From a virus, in the UHGV virus genome UHGV-0299458: DNA of 29,348 nt; one strand, written 5' to 3'. Positions 1-21,590 of the stretch are shown here, in pieces. The position numbers were made by a program, and so were the translations under genes. Under the pieces are notes generated by a model that was given only the letters and a program-made list of their open reading frames with translations, was not told the DNA's origin and made no database searches. Each line of letters opens with the position of its first letter. Within the stretch, counting starts at the first letter, position 1.

Positions 1-1349
1 GTCGCTTCATAATCCTTTTTCGCCGCCGCCATCAGCGTGTTGTAATCCGCCTGCAGGATTTTCCCGTCTTTCAGTGCCTTGTTCAGTTCTTCCTGACGGG
101 CGGTATATTTCTCCAGCGGCGTCTGCAGCCGTTCGTAAGCCCTCTGCGCCTCTTCGGTATATTTCAGCCGTGACGCTTCGGTATCGCTCTGCTGCTGCGC
201 ATTTTTGTCCTGTTGAGTCTGCTGCTCAGCCTTCTTTCGGGCGGCTTCAAGCGCAAGACGGGCCTTTTCACGATCATCCCAGTAACGCGCCCGCGCTTCA
301 TCGTTAACAAAATAATCATCCTTGCGCAGATTCCAGATGTCGTCTGCTTTCTTAAACGCAGCCTCTGCCTTAATCAGCATCTCCTGCGCGGTATCAGGAC
401 GACCAATATCCAGCACCGCATCCCACATGGATTTGAATGCCCGCGCTGTCCTGTCTGCCCAGGTCTCCAGCGTGCCCATGTTCTCTTTCAGGCGGCGGGT
501 CTGGTCATCAAACCCTTTCGTTGCGGCCTCGTTCGCAGCCTGCAATGCCCCGGTTTCATCGCCGGAACGCTGCAACTGAGCAACATACGCAATCTGCTCC
601 GCCGTCACGTTATGGAACTGCTTCGCCATCGCAATCAGCCCCGACGTCGGGTCAGTGGTCAGTTTTCCGAAAGCCTCTGCAACCTTGTCCACCTCCACAC
701 CGGATGCAGAAGCAAAACGCGCGACACTCTGGTTGATGGCATCAAACTGTTCACCACCACGCACACCGGCATTCACCATGGCTGCCAGTGACTCACTCGC
801 CTGGTTAAACGTCAGCCCTGCGGCCTGTCCGGCTCTGGAGAGCGTCAGCATGCGATCGGCAGTCAGTCCGGACTGATTACCGGAAAGAACCAGGGTTTTA
901 TTAAACGCTGAAAGCGTGGAATCTCCCTGGTACCAGGCGTACACCAGCGCACCTGTCGCCACCGCCAGCGAGGTGACCCCGACCATCGGCAGGGTGATCG
1001 CACCGGCAAGCCCCCTGAACATGGGGATCATCCCGCCGAAGGAGTCCTTCACCTGACCGCCCTGTTGCAGCAGGATCAGCCAGGGATTCTGACCACCGGC
1101 AAGCTGCGTGGCGATATCCGTAAACTGTGCGGGCAGGGTTCGCATGGCCGCTTTATACTGCCCGACGGAAATCCCTGCTTTTTGTGCAGCCAGCGCCTGG
1201 CGGCTCAGGCCCTGTTCAACAGCACTGGCGGTTTTTCTGGCGTCGGTATCCAGACCTGAAAAATGACGCCTTACCCGGCTCATCTGCTCATCGAAACGGA
1301 CAGCATCCAGACTAAGGTCAATAACAAGATCACCAACCGGCTGGGACAT
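1..1349 (-). CDS. H: Tail tape measure protein H, N-terminal part (gene runs off the left edge of the window)
   Basis: Reverse-strand translation from ATG at 1347-1349 reads MSQPVGDLVIDLSLDAVRFDEQMSRVRRHFSG..., closely matching lambda gpH N-terminus as recalled; frame open to position 1. Confidence 0.9.
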   Translation of the reverse strand, partial: MSQPVGDLVIDLSLDAVRFDEQMSRVRRHFSGLDTDARKTASAVEQGLSRQALAAQKAGISVGQYKAAMRTLPAQFTDIATQLAGGQNPWLILLQQGGQVKDSFGGMIPMFRGLAGAITLPMVGVTSLAVATGALVYAWYQGDSTLSAFNKTLVLSGNQSGLTADRMLTLSRAGQAAGLTFNQASESLAAMVNAGVRGGEQFDAINQSVARFASASGVEVDKVAEAFGKLTTDPTSGLIAMAKQFHNVTAEQIAYVAQLQRSGDETGALQAANEAATKGFDDQTRRLKENMGTLETWADRTARAFKSMWDAVLDIGRPDTAQEMLIKAEAAFKKADDIWNLRKDDYFVNDEARARYWDDREKARLALEAARKKAEQQTQQDKNAQQQSDTEASRLKYTEEAQRAYERLQTPLEKYTARQEELNKALKDGKILQADYNTLMAAAKKDYEA

Positions 1350-2201
1350 ATCTCACACCTCCCGGAATCCCCGCTGAAGCCATCATTAATGCGGCATCAT
1401 CCACCATGACATCCGCCACATCCGCAGACGATAAAATATCGCGCCCTCCGTCCCCACCGAACCGGACGCCTCCGGCAAGTCCTGCCGCTTTCTGCATCAG
1501 CATTTTGTCCTCATCCGGCCTCTCCACCTGTTCTTCCTCATGCCGGGGGACAAGCAGACTGAAATCAGAGGGATGCATATCCGGATCGCAAAAAAACAGG
1601 CTGAGTACAGCGTACGTCAGCCCGGAAAAATGCATATCCAGCTGGGTATCCTGAAAATAATGCGTGCGGTAAAAACGGTGCCAGTCGGCATATTCGGTGG
1701 ATGTCATCCCGGCAAGCATGGCGCGCCAGTCGGGTCTCCCCATCTCACGCGCCAGTCTGAGGGCAAAGTTCAGCTCGCCGTCGAAGACTTTCCCGCAGAA
1801 AAATCATCATCAGTCAGCGTGTTATTTTTCGCCACTTCAGTAATATCAGTATCCGGACGAACAGCTTCGATCATCCCGGACAGGCACAACACCACGTCTT
1901 CCGCCCGGGCAATGGCATCGGCAGGCCAGGTGGTGAGCACTTCCTGCTCTATCTTCATCACGGCCTCATTCATTGACGGTGACTGCGTTTTCTGTGGATG
2001 GTTATGCCACAGGGACATCGCCACCAGAAACGCGCCGGTTCTGACAAGATCTTCCACACTCACCTGCAGGTTGCCGCTGGCTTCAGCCTCTTCTGCCCGC
2101 CGTTTCAGGAGGGCAAGATGCTCAATACGCTGCAGCGCAGACAGCTCAGAAAGCGTGACGGATACACCGTTATATTCAAATTGTTCTGTTTTCAGGAACA
2201 T
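1330..2201 (-). CDS. T: Tail assembly chaperone G-T fusion, made by -1 programmed ribosomal frameshift near the end of G
   Basis: The T-frame ORF (1330..1743) is in the -1 frame relative to G and stays open through the slippery site; the arrangement is identical to lambda G/G-T. The T stop overlaps the H start. Confidence 0.8.
1770..2201 (-). CDS. G: Tail assembly chaperone G
   Basis: 143-aa ORF MFLKTEQFEYNGVSVTLSELSALQRIEHLALLKR... near-identical in pattern to lambda gpG; lies between V and H as in lambda. Confidence 0.92.
   Translation of the reverse strand: MFLKTEQFEYNGVSVTLSELSALQRIEHLALLKRRAEEAEASGNLQVSVEDLVRTGAFLVAMSLWHNHPQKTQSPSMNEAVMKIEQEVLTTWPADAIARAEDVVLCLSGMIEAVRPDTDITEVAKNNTLTDDDFSAGKSSTAS
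1788..1794 (-). promoter_or_regulatory. Slippery heptamer G GGA AAG for the G to G-T -1 frameshift
   Basis: Plus strand reads ctttccc, i.e. GGGAAAG on the coding strand, in codons ...GCG GGA AAG...; same heptamer and position as in lambda G. Confidence 0.8.
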
Positions 2202-2219
2202 CGCTTATCTCTCAGCTCT

Positions 2220-2966
2220 TTAGCCACCCGGCACATTATTAACGGTAATTTCAGCCACCGCAGCAAACTGACCATTACCGGAAATCACAGGGATGCTGAC
2301 TTTTCCATCCTTAACCCCCGTCACAGTAATCGTCATATCTTTCACGCTAATGGTGGCTTTTGATGGATCGGCGGAAATCGCCCTGAATGTCTTATCCGTT
2401 GCATTTTCCGGTTCCACAGTAACGGTCAGGGTGGTTGTTTTCCCTTTTTCAACCGTACCTGTCGGCGTTACCTTAATCGCAGTGACCGGCGTAATTTTGC
2501 TGCGTTCTTCCGCTACAGAAGGTTTACCCACGTTAGTGACTTTCACCGTGCGGGTGATCACTTCTTTCGCCGTCACGGCCTTACCGATACTGCTGACCCA
2601 GCCACGAAACACATCCACCGTGCCATTCGGAAAACGGATTTTATAGGCCCGGACATCGCCGCTTTCAAACCAGCCTATAAGCCCTTTCTGACCTTCCTCT
2701 CCCGGTTTCCAGGCCAGCGTAAAACTGGTATCACCTGCAGATTTCTGCCCCTGCCCGGTCGCGGTCCAGTCCGCGTCTTCATCATCCAGGTAGTTATCAT
2801 CGTAGGGTTCAGCCGTCATCTCGCCCGGCGTCAGATCCTTCACCTTAGCCAGTCGCTGCCAGCCATCGTCTGACAACGGGTTTGCATAAGCATCAGCCTT
2901 GCCGTTGTAAACCCACAGAGTGGTACCGGCACCTTTTACCGGCTCAAGGGGATTTGGTGTTGCCAT
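2220..2966 (-). CDS. V: Major tail tube protein V with C-terminal Ig-like domain
   Basis: 248-aa [39 protein letters not shown]...[41 protein letters not shown] matches lambda gpV; C-terminal Thr/Val-rich Ig-like segment. Confidence 0.93.
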
Positions 2967-2973
2967 ATCGTCC

Positions 2974-3369
2974 TCACATCTCGTATGTAATGGAATAAGT
3001 CAGATCTGCAGAACTCCATAACGCCATATCGTCATCACGACGATACTCATAGCCCTGCGTAACCATCGTGGTAATCAGTCCTGCCAGTGCCGGGATCGCG
3101 GTCATCGCCGGGTAAATCCGGCTTTCCATCCACTGATCAAGCTCTGAATCCGGTACCTGTGCCGGTAAAAACACCTCAATATGCAGCGTGGCCCGCCAGG
3201 TATCTGCATCCAGCTCTTCACCGGTATACTCTGCATCCGTCAGATAAACCGCGATCGCAGGAAAATCCTCTTCGTCAAAAACAACGGGGCGACCATCAAA
3301 CAGCGTCGCCCCGTGTTCATGCTGCTCGAGTGCATCCAGCACTGCGGCACGAATGTCAGTGTGTTTCAT
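2974..3369 (-). CDS. U: Tail terminator protein U
   Basis: 131-aa [47 protein letters not shown]...[10 protein letters not shown] matches lambda gpU. Confidence 0.92.
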
Positions 3370-3899
3370 CGTTTTATCGCAATCCTCAGTTGTTGTTTCA
3401 GCGCGGATGCCAGTTCTCCGGGCAGGCGTTCACACCGGATACGGTCAACATTCTCATCAAACGCCTGTTTCAGTGGGGCCGCCATCGGGATTTTCACCAC
3501 ATCAATAGGGTAACGGTTTTTCCCGGCCACACGCTGCATGACATGCCAGCGACCGTTTTTTAATCGCTGAATGAATGCCCGCTGATACCGATGCTGACCG
3601 GCTTTAAGTATGCTGTTCGGACGACGGCCCAGCATCCTGATCCCCAGCTTAATCACTGGAAGATCACCGCGGTTAACGATAATTTTTGCGTTCGGATTTC
3701 TGACCGTCGCCCGTTTCAGTCTGGACCGTTCCTTTACCAGTTTCCGGCGTACCTTTGTCTCCCGGGCAACCTGTGATGAAGACTGATTAATCGCCGTTGT
3801 GGCCACGCGGTTAATCGTCATTGCTGAAGCCGCCGGAATGGCGTTTTTACGAACCCGGCTCAGATTATCAATCGCCTGATCAAGCCCTTTTATCGCCAT
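3366..3899 (-). CDS. Z: Tail completion protein Z
   Basis: 177-aa ORF MAIKGLDQAIDNLSRVRKNAIPAASAMTINRVA...RWHVMQRVAGKNRYPIDVVKIPMA matches lambda gpZ; stop overlaps U start. Confidence 0.9.
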   Translation of the reverse strand: MAIKGLDQAIDNLSRVRKNAIPAASAMTINRVATTAINQSSSQVARETKVRRKLVKERSRLKRATVRNPNAKIIVNRGDLPVIKLGIRMLGRRPNSILKAGQHRYQRAFIQRLKNGRWHVMQRVAGKNRYPIDVVKIPMAAPLKQAFDENVDRIRCERLPGELASALKQQLRIAIKR

Positions 3900-3914
3900 A
3901 ATTTCACCCTGCGT

Positions 3915-4268
3915 TTATCGTCGCCGGTTAACAGCGGGTGGTTGCCCACGGTTGAGCCAGAGATAACAGCTGCCCCCGTCATCCGGAGAAACACGATCCA
4001 CCCAGAACATCTCGCCGTTAATGGTCAGCGTGTCACCACGCCGCACGGCACGCACCGTATCCGTCCGCACAAATAATGACGGGCTGCTTCCTTCAATACG
4101 GACCCCGCCACCGGCAAAACCCAGCGACTCCGGATCGTCAAAAACCCCCTGAACTTCGCTTCCACGCTGTGCTCCCGAGGTGAACTGCGCACAGAGCCCC
4201 ATCACTTCAACAATCGTGCTGTCCACCCCGGCAAGGGCAGCATCAAAGGCATTCTGAAAATCACGCAT
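3915..4268 (-). CDS. FII: Head-tail joining protein FII
   Basis: 117-aa ORF with ...GVFDDPESLGFAGGGVRIEGSSPSLFVRTD...FWVDRVSPDDGGSCYLWLNRGQPPAVNRRR matching lambda gpFII. Confidence 0.9.
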   Translation of the reverse strand: MRDFQNAFDAALAGVDSTIVEVMGLCAQFTSGAQRGSEVQGVFDDPESLGFAGGGVRIEGSSPSLFVRTDTVRAVRRGDTLTINGEMFWVDRVSPDDGGSCYLWLNRGQPPAVNRRR

Positions 4269-4644
4269 GCTCAGCCGTTCCGTGCTGTATCATGGCTGTC
4301 GCCAGTGGTGATGGCACCATAACACGCATGCCCCGGTACGTCAGTTCAACGGGACGGCCTGTCTCCGGGCAATACCCCATCACATGCAGGCATTTCCGCA
4401 CACGGACCGCTTTAACATCATCCGTAGCATCAGTGTTGTGCAACTGCTCACCATCGTCTGTGTGATTTTGATCAGCCCCGCTCTCATCAGAGTGCATAAT
4501 GCCCTCCGGGGAAACAGCAAGCTCCTCTTCCCACTCAGACACACGTTGAGCAATATCCGCAGCACTCCCCGACATATCCGCCTCGCGCCCCAGCAGGCCA
4601 GCCAGTTGACGAAGACGATTCAGATTTTCTTCTTTTGTTGCCAT
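4261..4644 (-). CDS. FI: DNA packaging protein FI
   Basis: Position between E and FII as in lambda; acidic protein. Start placed at internal ATG (4642-4644, MATKEENLNRL...) because it has a strong AGGAGG Shine-Dalgarno; the ORF-track start at 4692 is probably an over-extension. Confidence 0.75.
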   Translation of the reverse strand: MATKEENLNRLRQLAGLLGREADMSGSAADIAQRVSEWEEELAVSPEGIMHSDESGADQNHTDDGEQLHNTDATDDVKAVRVRKCLHVMGYCPETGRPVELTYRGMRVMVPSPLATAMIQHGTAEHA

Positions 4645-17977: not shown

Positions 17978-18084
17978 TTAACAGAACTTTTATTTTTGAC
18001 AAACATATAATATTTTCAACAATATCCTGAGCCAGGTATATTTCAGTATAAGGCTCTGCCGAAAGGAATCTGGAAGAATGAATA

Positions 18085-18161
18085 TGGCGCGCTGTACTGG
18101 ATTCGAACCAGTGACCGATTGCTTAGAAGGCAATTGCTCTGTCCGGCTGAGCTAACAACGC
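18085..18161 (-). tRNA. argO: tRNA-Arg (anticodon UCU)
   Basis: Reverse complement folds as a cloverleaf: GCGTTGT-TA-GCTC..GAGC-A-ATTGC-CTTCTAA-GCAAT-CGGTC-ACTGG-TTCGAAT-CCAGT-ACAGCGC-G-CCA. Symbol assigned by analogy to the ileZ-argN-argO cluster of Stx phages. Confidence 0.85.
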
Positions 18162-18174
18162 ATGATGCAGATAA

Positions 18175-18251
18175 TGGACCGCCATCGGGGACTTGAACCC
18201 CGCGCAGCCAGCTTCGAAGGCTGGCGCTCTTTCCTGATGAGCTAATGGCGG
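18175..18251 (-). tRNA. argN: tRNA-Arg (anticodon UCG)
   Basis: Reverse complement: CCGCCAT-TA-GCTC..GAGC-G-CCAGC-CTTCGAA-GCTGG-CTGCG-CGGGG-TTCAAGT-CCCCG-ATGGCGG-T-CCA (77 nt); symbol by analogy. Confidence 0.8.
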
Positions 18252-18258
18252 TATGTGA

Positions 18259-18334
18259 TGGTGGCCCTTGCTGGATTTGAACCAGCGACCTGGCGATTAT
18301 GAGTCGCTCGCTCTCACCACTGAGCTAAAGGGCC
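18259..18334 (-). tRNA. ileZ: tRNA with CAU anticodon, most like tRNA-Ile2 (lysidine) rather than Met
   Basis: Reverse complement GGCCCTTTAGCTCAGTGGTGAGAGCGAGCGACTCATAATCGCCAGGTCGCTGGTTCAAATCCAGCAAGGGCCACCA; near-identical in pattern to E. coli ileX as recalled. Confidence 0.85.
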
Positions 18335-18372
18335 GGGAGCAGAATAATAACGGTCCGTAATTAATTCCGCAA

Positions 18373-18398
18373 TAAAAAACCCGCTCGGCGGCGGGTTG
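18373..18398 (-). terminator. Intrinsic terminator tR' downstream of the late promoter
   Basis: On the minus strand: AACCCGCCGCCGAGCGGGTTTTTTATTG (stem CCCGC/GCGGG plus U-run), about 60 nt downstream of the predicted pR' start. Confidence 0.7.
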
Positions 18399-18444
18399 TA
18401 GAAACTCTTCTAACGTCAGGCATAAAAAGCCCATTGTTATGACG

Positions 18445-18472
18445 AATTTACCACAGATTCCGGAAAAATCAA
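18445..18472 (-). promoter_or_regulatory. Late promoter pR' (with qut region) immediately downstream of Q
   Basis: Minus strand reads TTGATT - 16 nt - TAAATT; lambda pR' is TTGACT - 17 nt - TAAATT in the same position relative to Q. Confidence 0.65.
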
Positions 18473-18477
18473 CCTTG

Positions 18478-19299
18478 TTACCTAGTTACCTTTTTTAACT
18501 GCCGCTCAGCCCATGCTTCTTCAATATCAAACCGGGTCACCAGCGCATCATAGAATTTCTTAACTGTTTTTTCCCATGACGCGCGTGTTATCTGGTTTGT
18601 CACCTCGCATATAGCATTAAATGCCTCCGTTGATGGTAGTCTTTCATAGCCACGACCACCACAACGCTGGCAGTCTCTGATAACAGGCATACCACGTTTT
18701 ACCGACTCTTCACGATGAATGGCGACACCACGCCCACGGCAATCCTTACAGGCGGTGGAAACCTCACCCTTTCCGCCACACTCCGGACAGGCAACTTTTA
18801 CCACCTCCCTGACTTTTTTCCATTCTTCCCAGTAAGACGAATACACACCTTTCGTACACTTTGCCCATACCGGCGGCTTACCATCCGGATACTGGACCTT
18901 GTTTGTAAAAACTACGCTTTCAATAAATTTTTCCCCATAGCAACAAGGGCACTGCTTTTTACTCGCTGCGCTGCGGGCATAATCCTCAAAAGCGTACGAA
19001 GCCATAATGCGCATCACTACCGGTTTTATTTCTGCCGGAAGTTTTCTCAACGCCGCCACACGATCGCACCGACTGAGTGCATAATCTGCCAGTAATTCTG
19101 TTGCCCGCGCCCTGTCATTCATACTGATGCCCATTTTCCCCAGGAACGCAGAAAAACCCATCTCAGCCCGATTCTGTGTCATGCCCTGCGCGGCCATCAC
19201 ATCAGTGATACTCAGCGCATCTTTTGACGTTGAGGCCGATGCATCGGTCAGGCCAGGGGATTTTGGGGAGTAGTATTTCGGTAAATCTTCCAGTTTCAT
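18478..19299 (-). CDS. Q: Late antiterminator Q (lambda-type) with CxxCxGxG zinc-binding repeats
   Basis: N-terminus MKLEDLPKYYSPKSP....SITDVMAAQGMTQNRAEMGFSAFLGK parallels lambda Q (MRLESVAKFHSPKSP...SGTDVMAAMGMAQSQAGFGMAAFCGK); C-terminus ...PLYDALV... also matches; three CxxCxGxG motifs. Confidence 0.88.
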   Translation of the reverse strand: MKLEDLPKYYSPKSPGLTDASASTSKDALSITDVMAAQGMTQNRAEMGFSAFLGKMGISMNDRARATELLADYALSRCDRVAALRKLPAEIKPVVMRIMASYAFEDYARSAASKKQCPCCYGEKFIESVVFTNKVQYPDGKPPVWAKCTKGVYSSYWEEWKKVREVVKVACPECGGKGEVSTACKDCRGRGVAIHREESVKRGMPVIRDCQRCGGRGYERLPSTEAFNAICEVTNQITRASWEKTVKKFYDALVTRFDIEEAWAERQLKKVTR

Positions 19300-21176: not shown

Positions 21177-21332
21177 TTACTCCTCAGGTTCGTAAGCTGT
21201 GAAGACAGCGACCTCCGTCTGGCCGGTTCGGATTCGTACCTCGCAGAGGTCTTTCCTCGTTACCAGTGCCGTCACTATGACGGTTAAACAGATGACGATC
21301 AGGGCGATTAACATCGCCTTTTGCTGCTTCAT
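21177..21332 (-). CDS. hok: Hok/Gef-family type I toxin (51 aa)
   Basis: Not in the ORF track (under 60 aa). Translation MKQQKAMLIALIVICLTVIVTALVTRKDLCEVRIRTGQTEVAVFTAYEPEE fits the Hok pattern (TM helix, then conserved ...TRK.LCE.R.R.G..EVA.F.AYE...). A short upstream ORF ends overlapping the hok ATG, mok-like. Confidence 0.8.
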   Translation of the reverse strand: MKQQKAMLIALIVICLTVIVTALVTRKDLCEVRIRTGQTEVAVFTAYEPEE

Positions 21333-21590
21333 AGCCTGCTTCTCCTTGACCTTTCGGTCCGTAAGAGGCTAATCTCTATGTGTCGCATAGATATGGCCTC
21401 AGATTAATGTTAAGCGTCTTGCAGGACGCGTAATGTTAACTGGGGCTTTTCTCTATCTGCCTTTTGGTGTTCATGCCTGAGACAGATAGCCTCAAGCACC
21501 CGCAGTCATTCTACTTAACTAAGATTTCCCCGCAAACCGTTTTTGTCCGGCACAGTAAATATCCAACTAAACCAATGGCGTTCGCTGTAT

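What the first reader, a model, noticed from the sequence alone, without database searches (positions are those of the whole stretch)
18085..18472. pR' / tR' followed by a three-tRNA cluster (Ile-CAU, Arg-UCG, Arg-UCU) as in Stx phages, but without stx
The late promoter (TTGATT-16-TAAATT), a terminator ~60 nt downstream and three tRNAs reading rare codons reproduce the Q-pR'-ileZ-argN-argO arrangement known from Stx-converting phages. The tRNAs may support translation of AT-rich cargo, which uses AGA/AGG/ATA codons.
Basis: partly seen in the sequence, partly recalled or inferred. Interest (0 to 1): 0.4.

Follow-up and report, generated by a model that had tools for sequence, protein, structure and literature searches.

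The report
Phage late promoter plus three tRNAs
This is the ordinary late-gene control region of a lambda-like E. coli prophage (Q antiterminator, late promoter, terminator) followed by the well-known phage tRNA trio ileZ-argN-argO, here without Shiga toxin genes; the same module is found in more than half of complete E. coli genomes.

Summary
ARAGORN and Rfam find three tRNAs at 18334..18085: CAU, UCG and UCU. The CAU tRNA is identical to 933W ileZ and resembles K-12 ileX, not the Met tRNAs. Upstream lie a lambda-family Q gene (PF03589), a promoter with the same -10 (TAAATT) and the same +1 AAC(A/G)ATGGG pause motif as lambda pR', and an intrinsic terminator about 60 nt downstream.

The cassette (18374..18077) is 94.7% identical to that of 933W. 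The Q/pR'/tR' module is not the 933W type. It is 91% identical at protein level to the Q of Stx2a phage Stx2_EH1910.

A 660-bp segment (ORF108 plus a DUF3927 peptide) sits where stx2AB lies in Stx phages. It is followed by the homologous STnc100 sRNA and iraM region.

ATA, AGA, AGG and CGG codons are 3- to 8-fold enriched across the whole prophage, not only in the cargo.

The cassette occurs in 3061 of 5426 complete E. coli genomes, and the literature already describes it. Verdict: real, correctly read, already known, low interest.

The parts
18478..19299 (-). Q late-gene antiterminator, 273 aa. Lambda-Q family with a 66-aa insertion carrying extra CxxCxGxG zinc motifs.
   Evidence: Pfam PF03589 at E=6e-55. 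31% identical to lambda Q and 91% to quuQ of Stx2a phage Stx2_EH1910. PGAP calls it 'antitermination protein'.
18445..18472 (-). pR' late promoter: -35 TTGATT (18472-18467), 16-nt spacer, extended -10 TGgTAAATT (-10 hexamer 18450-18445).
   Evidence: Read from the sequence. The -10 is identical to lambda pR'. The motif is invariant in four related phages and lambda. The composite motif is unique in the window, 0 of 100 shuffles, and follows Q in all seven loci with a lambda-family Q.
18433..18438 (-). -10-like AACAAT at the predicted +1..+6, followed by GGG. It aligns with the lambda pR' AACGAT sigma70-dependent pause-inducing element, where Q loads.
   Evidence: Alignment with lambda and relatives. 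The function is inferred from established lambda pR' biology and was not tested here.
18373..18438 (-). Predicted short pR'-to-tR' leader RNA of about 66 nt, the product expected in a lysogen. It is analogous to lambda 6S RNA and to StxS, but not homologous to StxS.
   Evidence: Fold: three hairpins, the last being the terminator, -18.2 kcal/mol, z = -1.6. The only similarity to the 933W StxS region is a 24-nt match to a terminator stem.
18372..18397 (-). tR' intrinsic terminator: stem AACCCGC/GCGGGTT, loop CGCCGA, then T6.
   Evidence: Terminator scan. The stem is kept, with different loops and a G-U change, in Stx2_EH1910 and Evi.
18344..18372 (-). pT, the tRNA cassette's own promoter: TTGCGG (18372-18367), 17-nt spacer, TATTAT (18349-18344). 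The -35 overlaps the end of the tR' U-tract. ileZ starts 10 nt after the -10.
   Evidence: Homologous to the 'pT; putative tRNA promoter' annotated in 933W. The -10 hexamer and the TTGC of the -35 are invariant in 8 loci. A primary TSS driving the tRNAs was mapped in the Sakai Stx2a phage (PMC7547250).
18259..18334 (-). ileZ: tRNA-Ile2, anticodon CAU, expected to be lysidine-modified and to read AUA.
   Evidence: 76/76 to 933W ileZ, 68/76 to K-12 ileX, 52/77 to metT. C4-G69 and C5-G68 as in ileX. PGAP calls it tRNA-Ile.
18175..18251 (-). argN: tRNA-Arg, anticodon UCG (reads CGA/CGG).
   Evidence: 73/77 to 933W argN. A20 and C35 are present.
18085..18161 (-). argO: tRNA-Arg, anticodon UCU (reads AGA, and AGG by wobble).
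   Evidence: 75/77 to 933W argO and 57/77 to K-12 argU.
17418..18076 (-). Moron segment occupying the position of stx2AB. It holds ORF108 (17947..17621; phrog_2873, function unknown) and a DUF3927/TciB-like 43-aa peptide (17585..17454).
   Evidence: Homology breakpoints against 933W and Stx2_EH1910. Pfam and PHROGs. ORF108 homologues come only from Escherichia/Shigella.
17199..17388 (-). STnc100-family prophage sRNA with its own terminator (17229..17208). It lies in the region homologous to the one just 3' of stx2B.
   Evidence: Rfam RF02076 at 132 bits. 71% identity to the post-stx2B region.
16838..17173 (+). IraM-family anti-adapter gene, antisense to late transcription. An iraM gene occupies the same position in Stx2a phage Stx2_EH1910.
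   Evidence: NCBIfam NF007393 at 162 bits against a cut-off of 121. Annotation of L004.

Best explanation
This is the late-operon control region of a lambda-like E. coli prophage, fused to the mobile phage tRNA cassette known from phage 933W.

In the lysogen (inferred): pR' fires constitutively, RNA polymerase pauses at the -10-like AACAAT in the initial transcribed region, and without Q it stops at tR'. The product is a leader RNA of about 66 nt. The cassette's own promoter pT transcribes ileZ-argN-argO independently.

After induction (inferred): Q, a lambda-Q family protein encoded immediately upstream, loads onto the paused polymerase. Transcription then reads through tR', the tRNAs, the moron segment and the STnc100 terminator into the lysis and morphogenesis genes. 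The tRNAs are cut out of that transcript as well.

The three tRNAs decode AUA, CGA/CGG and AGA/AGG. The host reads these codons poorly, and this prophage uses most of them 3- to 8-fold more often than host housekeeping genes do. The tRNAs therefore supplement translation of phage genes and morons.

Shown here: the sequence features, their homologies and the codon bias. Inferred: promoter activity, pausing, Q-dependent read-through, the lysidine modification and any translational benefit.
For: tRNAs and their identities.

Q family.

pR' shares with lambda the -10 TAAATT and the AAC(A/G)ATGGG element six bases downstream. The composite motif is unique in the window and lies directly after Q in every locus with a lambda-family Q.

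Terminator: with the stem conserved in relatives.

pT: annotated in 933W, -10 and TTGC of the -35 invariant in 8 loci, and a TSS for the tRNAs found by dRNA-seq in the Sakai Stx2a phage (PMC7547250).

Cassette boundaries are 18374..18077, at 94.7% identity to 933W.

Codon use per 1000, 45 window CDS against 35 host genes: ATA 8.5 vs 2.1, AGA 6.7 vs 0.8, AGG 6.7 vs 1.0, CGG 14.8 vs 5.2 (each p < 1e-9), and CGA 5.5 vs 3.7 (not significant). ORF108 has 9 ATA/AGA/AGG codons in 108, similar to stx2AB.

Prevalence: 3061 of 5426 complete E. coli genomes carry the cassette, with up to 13 copies.

Literature: argO copy number tracks AGA use in laterally acquired genes (PMC4539685). tRNAs downstream of Q are common in lambdoid phages (PMC3636060). 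The site downstream of pR' is a known moron/sRNA site (PMC4104026).
Against: There is no expression data for this locus.

pR' matches the sigma70 consensus at only 8 of 12 positions. The pT -35 matches at only 3 of 6. Neither passed the generic promoter scan.

The host comparison set includes highly expressed housekeeping genes, which exaggerates the contrast.

CGA is not significantly enriched, so the case for argN rests on CGG.

The major capsid gene, presumably the most highly expressed late gene, uses none of the five codons. The benefit may therefore be small for bulk late proteins.

Relatives lack argN (mEp460) or both Arg tRNAs (640R1), so the tRNAs are dispensable for this phage type.
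Confidence: 0.85

Rival explanations
1. The tRNAs are retained mainly because they benefit the lysogen rather than the phage. Expressed constitutively from pT, they raise the host's capacity to translate AGA/AGG/AUA-rich horizontally acquired genes such as other prophages, islands and virulence genes. This is compatible with the main explanation but places the selection differently.
For: The cassette has its own promoter, independent of Q. It persists in more than half of E. coli genomes and in up to 13 copies per genome, many in degraded prophages. argO copy number correlates with AGA use in laterally acquired genes of O157:H7 (PMC4539685).
Against: The position directly behind pR'/tR' and ahead of the late genes is conserved, as expected for a phage function. 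The prophage's own genes carry the codon bias. Frequent decay of argN argues against strong host-level selection for all three tRNAs.
Confidence: 0.25
2. The tRNAs are counter-defence spares. They would replace host tRNAs that are cleaved or depleted by anticodon nucleases or toxins during infection, for example colicin-D-like tRNA-Arg cleavage.
For: Only indirect evidence. The related phage Evi carries tRNA-Lys(UUU), a classic target of anticodon nucleases, at the same site. The cassette content varies between close relatives, as expected under arms-race turnover.
Against: The anticodon loops of ileZ and argO are identical to those of host ileX and argU, so they show no obvious escape mutations. 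The codons they read are exactly those over-used by the phage, which the simpler supplementation model already explains.
Confidence: 0.05
3. The roughly 66-nt pR'-tR' leader is more than a by-product of antitermination control. It would act in trans as a regulatory sRNA in the lysogen, as StxS does for 933W-type phages.
For: StxS sets the precedent for a constitutively made, tR'-terminated pR' RNA acting as an Hfq-dependent sRNA (PMC7547250). The leader ends in a Rho-independent terminator with a U-tract and is well conserved in relatives.
Against: It has no homology to StxS. The fold is not better than shuffles (z = -1.6). No Rfam family matches it; there is only a sub-threshold Trp_leader hit. 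Its conservation is no higher than that of the flanking Q gene.
Confidence: 0.1
4. The promoter-like hexamers are a chance match. On this reading the hairpin merely terminates the early (Q) transcript, and late transcription starts elsewhere.
For: The match to consensus is only 8 of 12 and was not reported by the generic scan. That scan finds as many promoter-like sites in shuffled sequence as in the real region.
Against: The -10, the spacing and the pause motif are identical with lambda pR', are placed directly after a lambda-family Q gene, and are invariant in four related phages. Only about 80 nt separate the Q stop codon from the terminator, leaving no other place for pR'.
Confidence: 0.04

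Closest known systems
pT-ileZ-argN-argO tRNA cassette of Stx2 phage 933W (AF125520) and other Stx phages
   Same: Same three tRNAs in the same order and with the same spacing. ileZ is 76/76 identical, argN 73/77 and argO 75/77. The same pT promoter precedes them. Overall identity is 94.7% over 300 bp.
   Different: In 933W the cassette lies about 430 nt after pR', behind two terminators, and is followed by stx2AB. Here it abuts the U-tract of tR' and is followed by ORF108 and DUF3927. In 933W, argO has G at position 37 and a U4-A69 pair. Here it has A37, as in argU, and U4-G69.
Lambda Q / pR' / tR' (6S RNA) late control region
   Same: Q belongs to the same Pfam family, PF03589. The -10 TAAATT is the same, and the same AAC(G/A)ATGGG motif starts at +1. 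An intrinsic terminator follows.
   Different: Q is only 31% identical and carries a 66-aa zinc-finger insertion. The -35 and the spacer, where the lambda Q-binding element lies, differ. The leader is about 66 nt rather than 194 nt. Lambda has no tRNAs.
Stx2a-converting phage Stx2_EH1910 (LC567834)
   Same: Same Q type (91% aa) and the same pR'/tR' (89% nt). It has the same tRNA cassette, and iraM is antisense downstream.
   Different: A hypothetical gene and a DNA methylase (1.5 kb) lie between tR' and the cassette. stx2AB lies between argO and the sRNA/iraM region.
Phage mEp460_ev081 (LR597641) and E. coli prophages such as that of strain WP7-S18-ESBL-09
   Same: 98-100% identical across Q, pR', tR', the tRNAs, ORF108 and DUF3927. 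More than 300 complete genomes are at least 99% identical over 2.7 kb.
   Different: mEp460 has a degenerate argN, and its sequence diverges downstream of 17251.
StxS sRNA (pR'-tR' transcript of 933W-type Stx phages)
   Same: Same genetic position, and by inference the same origin as a constitutively made, tR'-terminated pR' leader.
   Different: No sequence homology. It belongs to a different Q family. The length is 258 nt, processed to 74 nt, against about 66 nt here. No function is known for the RNA here.

Membership tests
Lambdoid late control region (Q-pR'-tR') | A Q antiterminator gene immediately upstream | tested here: met
   PF03589 at E=6e-55. The stop codon is at 18478, 6 nt before the -35.
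Lambdoid late control region (Q-pR'-tR') | A sigma70 promoter directly after Q | tested here: met
   TTGATT-16-TGgTAAATT. The -10 is identical to lambda pR' and conserved in relatives. This is met by sequence only; activity was not measured.
Lambdoid late control region (Q-pR'-tR') | A -10-like pause-inducing element in the initial transcribed region | tested here: met
   AACAATGGG at the predicted +1 aligns with lambda AACGATGGG.
Lambdoid late control region (Q-pR'-tR') | An intrinsic terminator shortly downstream of pR' | tested here: met
   A 7-bp, GC-rich stem followed by T6 at 18397..18372.
Lambdoid late control region (Q-pR'-tR') | Q-dependent read-through of tR' into the late genes | not testable with these tools
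   This needs reporter or transcript assays.
933W-type ileZ-argN-argO cassette | Three tRNAs with anticodons CAU, UCG and UCU, in this order | tested here: met
933W-type ileZ-argN-argO cassette | Sequence homology to the 933W cassette, including the pT promoter | tested here: met
   94.7% over 300 bp. The pT -10 and the TTGC of its -35 are conserved.
933W-type ileZ-argN-argO cassette | The CAU tRNA is tRNA-Ile2 (a TilS substrate), not tRNA-Met | tested here: met
   76/76 to ileZ, 68/76 to ileX, 52/77 to metT. C4-G69 and C5-G68 as in ileX. The lysidine modification itself cannot be tested here.
Stx-converting phage | stxA and stxB genes between the tRNAs and the lysis genes | tested here: not met
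   tblastn with Stx2A/B gives only hits at E >= 0.3. The slot holds ORF108 and DUF3927.
StxS sRNA | Sequence homology of the pR'-tR' transcript to StxS | tested here: not met
   Only a 24-nt terminator-stem similarity. The Q family also differs, PF03589 against PF06530.

The most novel reading that the evidence does not exclude
The roughly 66-nt RNA made from pR' and ended at tR' (18438..~18373) may be a trans-acting regulatory sRNA of lysogens. It would be a second, unrelated example of the StxS principle, this time in lambda-Q-type prophages that are present in hundreds of E. coli genomes.
Probability: 0.1. Interest if true: 0.4.

Novelty: already known. Interest (0 to 1): 0.1.

Why it matters
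It matters little beyond correct annotation. The region shows how lambdoid late regions are assembled from interchangeable modules: the Q/pR'/tR' type, the tRNA cassette with its own promoter, the moron slot, and the sRNA/iraM block. The slot that holds stx in pathogens holds other small genes in commensal or ESBL E. coli. The tRNA cassette is a useful landmark for the stx insertion slot, but it is not a marker of Stx phages.

Tried and rejected
Generic promoter scan. It lists neither pR' nor pT, and it finds as many sites in shuffles as in the real sequence, so it was not used as evidence either way.

ARAGORN's 'tRNA-Met' label. Rejected after comparison with ileX, ileZ, metT and metZ.

Homology of pR'/tR' to 933W pR'/StxS. 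None was found apart from a 24-nt terminator stem.

AgvB/AsxR anti-sRNAs. There is no Rfam hit even at E <= 1.

A sub-threshold Trp_leader hit over pR'-tR' (25.5 bits against a gathering score of 41). Treated as a chance resemblance between terminator-bearing leaders.

Coordinates from NZ_AP022207. The annotation of the identical genome does not transfer to the first 4.6 kb of the window, where the tail genes differ. Those coordinates were replaced by the window's own ORFs.

Literature searches. Searches for 'ileZ/argN/argO' gave nothing useful in the held library. The 933W genome paper is not held, so its annotation was taken from the GenBank record instead.

'Prophages integrating into prophages' (PMC8112680). 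Checked for tRNA-based integration and found irrelevant.

ORF108. No Pfam or NCBIfam match, only a PHROG of unknown function, and homologues restricted to Escherichia/Shigella.

Full report
**Observation**

All features lie on the minus strand, so the region reads from 18472 down to 18085.

ARAGORN finds three tRNA genes: 18334..18259 (anticodon CAT), 18251..18175 (TCG) and 18161..18085 (TCT). The Rfam tRNA model scores them 72.5, 58 and 68 bits against a gathering score of 29.

The hexamers TTGATT (18472-18467) and TAAATT (18450-18445) are separated by 16 nt, and TG precedes the -10 at -15/-14. A terminator-like hairpin spans 18397..18378 (7 bp, 5 of them GC) and is followed by six T.

The finding's coordinates, 18085-18472, run exactly from the end of the last tRNA to the start of the -35.

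**tRNA identities**

ARAGORN calls the CAT tRNA 'Met', but this label does not hold.
- It is 76/76 identical to ileZ of phage 933W.
- It is 68/76 identical to K-12 ileX.
- It is only 52/77 identical to the elongator metT/metU and 46/77 to the initiator metZ.
- It has the C4-G69 and C5-G68 acceptor pairs of ileX rather than the U4/A5 of metT. From established knowledge of TilS recognition, these pairs are the acceptor-stem determinants for lysidine formation.
- PGAP annotates it as tRNA-Ile in a genome identical over this region.

The UCU tRNA is 75/77 identical to 933W argO and 57/77 to K-12 argU. The UCG tRNA is 73/77 identical to 933W argN. Both carry A20 and C35.

**The late control module**

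The 273-aa ORF at 19299..18478 is a Q antiterminator of the lambda-Q Pfam family PF03589, E=6e-55.
- It is 31% identical to lambda Q and has a 66-aa insertion carrying extra CxxCxGxG motifs.
- It is 91% identical to the 'quuQ' of Stx2a-converting phage Stx2_EH1910.
- The Q of 933W belongs to a different family, PF06530.

The promoter matches the sigma70 consensus at only 8 of 12 positions, and the generic scan did not report it. It is nevertheless a clear homologue of lambda pR'.
- Lambda reads TTGACT-N17-TAAATT-tgactc-AACGATGGG.
- The window reads TTGATT-N16-TAAATT-cgtcat-AACAATGGG.

In lambda, from established knowledge, AACGAT at +1..+6 is the -10-like element that induces the sigma70-dependent pause at which Q loads.

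This composite motif occurs once in the window and in none of 100 shuffles. It lies directly after Q in all seven fetched loci with a lambda-family Q, and in none with a 933W-type Q. The pattern was written after seeing these sequences, so this is a consistency check and not an independent test.

With +1 at 18438, termination at tR' would give an RNA of about 66 nt. It folds into three small hairpins, the last being the terminator, but not better than shuffles (z = -1.6).

The pR'-tR' stretch has no homology to 933W pR'/StxS apart from a 24-nt terminator stem.

**The tRNA cassette carries its own promoter**

Local BLAST places the homology with 933W and Stx2_EH1910 at 18374..18077, at 94.7% and 93.7% identity. 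The shared block therefore starts inside the U-tract of tR' and ends 8 nt after argO.

The first 40 nt of the block are TATTGCGGAATTAATTACGGACCGTTATTATTCTGCTCCC. They correspond to the feature annotated in the 933W record as 'pT; putative tRNA promoter'.

The -10 TATTAT and the TTGC of the -35, TTGC(A/G)G, are invariant in eight loci, while the sequence upstream of them differs completely between the two Q types. Sy et al. [quoted passage not shown]

The tRNAs are thus probably made in the lysogen from pT and, after induction, also from the antiterminated pR' transcript. This is inferred by homology and was not measured for this locus.

**What sits where stx would be**

tblastn with Stx2A/B finds nothing in the window (E >= 0.3).

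In Stx2_EH1910 the order is argO, stx2A, stx2B, an sRNA region, iraM (antisense), then nanS-p. In the window, homology with that phage and with 933W resumes at 17417 (71% identity), in the region just 3' of stx2B.

The 660 bp between 18076 and 17418 therefore replace stx2AB. They contain two genes.
- ORF108 (17947..17621) is not annotated by PGAP but matches phrog_2873 at E=2e-70. It has no Pfam or NCBIfam match. Its homologues come only from Escherichia/Shigella and go down to 55% identity.
- A 43-aa DUF3927/TciB-like peptide lies at 17585..17454.

Downstream come an STnc100-family sRNA (17388..17199, 132 bits) and an IraM-family anti-adapter gene on the opposite strand (16838..17173; NF007393, 162 bits).

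Tree et al. 2014 described this site downstream of pR' as a moron insertion site flanked by prophage sRNAs (PMC4104026). Zhu et al. 2026 discuss STnc100 as a prophage sRNA.

I compared 45 CDS of the window (7291 codons) with 35 housekeeping genes of a host chromosome (12299 codons). Frequencies are per 1000 codons.

| Codon | Window | Host | Significance |
|---|---|---|---|
| ATA | 8.5 | 2.1 | p < 1e-9 |
| AGA | 6.7 | 0.8 | p < 1e-9 |
| AGG | 6.7 | 1.0 | p < 1e-9 |
| CGG | 14.8 | 5.2 | p < 1e-9 |
| CGA | 5.5 | 3.7 | p = 0.07 |

- The enrichment is phage-wide. The early genes have the most AGG (12.7 per 1000), and the late structural genes are still 2- to 5-fold enriched.
- The cargo block stands out only for ATA (40 per 1000).
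- ORF108, right after the tRNAs, has 3 ATA, 3 AGA and 3 AGG in 108 codons, much like stx2AB.
- The IraM-like gene has 6 ATA among 13 Ile but only one Arg codon.
- The major capsid gene uses none of the five codons.

The supplementation idea is therefore supported, but for the phage as a whole and not specifically for the cargo. The host sample contains highly expressed genes, which inflates the contrast.

**How common and how known**

- The 2.7-kb region is 100% identical in many complete E. coli chromosomes of human, dog and wastewater origin. At least 99% identity is seen in 324 records.
- The 298-bp cassette occurs in 3061 of 5426 complete genomes, with a median of one copy and up to 13.
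- Among sequenced phages, mEp460_ev081 shares Q, pR', tR', the tRNAs, ORF108 and DUF3927 at 98%.
- Relatives vary at the tRNA site. Evi has Ile2-Lys(UUU)-Arg(UCU), mEp460 has a degenerate argN, and vB_EcoS-640R1 keeps only Ile2.
- McDonald et al. 2015 reported seven argO copies in O157:H7 Sakai, far more than its two Stx phages, and a correlation of argO copy number with AGA use in acquired genes (PMC4539685).
- tRNAs directly downstream of Q are noted for several other lambdoid phages (PMC3636060).

**Verdict**

1. Everything is on the minus strand.
2. The Q/pR'/tR' module is the lambda-Q type, not the 933W type.
3. The tRNA cassette has its own promoter, pT.
4. The rare-codon demand is phage-wide.

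The architecture is a recombinant of known modules and is very widespread, so it is already known and of low interest. The only open point with some novelty is whether the roughly 66-nt pR' leader has a trans-acting role like StxS. Nothing found here speaks for that beyond the analogy.

Noticed in passing
window 17199-17388 (-): A strong Rfam STnc100 sRNA match (132 bits) with its own terminator at 17229..17208. It lies in the region homologous to the stretch just 3' of stx2B in 933W and Stx2_EH1910. No AgvB/AsxR match is found nearby, even at E <= 1.
   Followed up: partly
window 16838-17173 (+): An IraM-family RssB anti-adapter gene (NF007393, 162 bits), AT-rich (GC 0.35) and antisense to late transcription. 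An iraM gene sits at the same place in Stx2a phage Stx2_EH1910. A prophage copy could stabilise RpoS in the lysogen.
   Followed up: partly
window 17621-17947 (-): A 108-aa ORF directly after argO. PGAP leaves it unannotated in an identical genome, yet it matches phrog_2873 (E=2e-70). It has 23 homologue clusters, restricted to Escherichia/Shigella and going down to 55% identity. Function unknown. 9 of its 108 codons are ATA/AGA/AGG.
   Followed up: partly
window 14971-15864 (-): A 297-aa ORF between the holin and the lysozyme. It has a DUF1327/YdfR N-terminus (residues 2-101) and about 195 further residues with no family match. PGAP calls it a truncated YdfR pseudogene. Related phages have a YdfR of about 116 aa here.
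   Followed up: no
window 21177-21501 (-): A hokD/sok type I toxin-antitoxin in the nin region (Rfam sok at 106.7 bits; hokD CDS annotated).
   Followed up: no
window 12808-13134 (-): A small protein with a TonB C-terminal domain (PF03544, E=7e-13) between the Rz lysis gene and the terminase. It is another likely moron.
   Followed up: no
L015 3649-3890; L005 4067-4319; L002 4067-4142: Close relatives with the same Q/pR'/tR' carry different tRNA sets at this site. Evi has Ile2-Lys(UUU)-Arg(UCU), mEp460 has lost argN, and vB_EcoS-640R1 keeps only Ile2. Many E. coli genomes likewise have only two of the three annotated.
   Followed up: partly
window 1-4600 versus L006: The tail-gene end of the window does not align position-by-position with the otherwise near-identical prophage of strain WP7-S18-ESBL-09, and 4.5-11 kb is only 86-99% identical. 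The window therefore comes from a mosaic relative, not from that strain.
   Followed up: no
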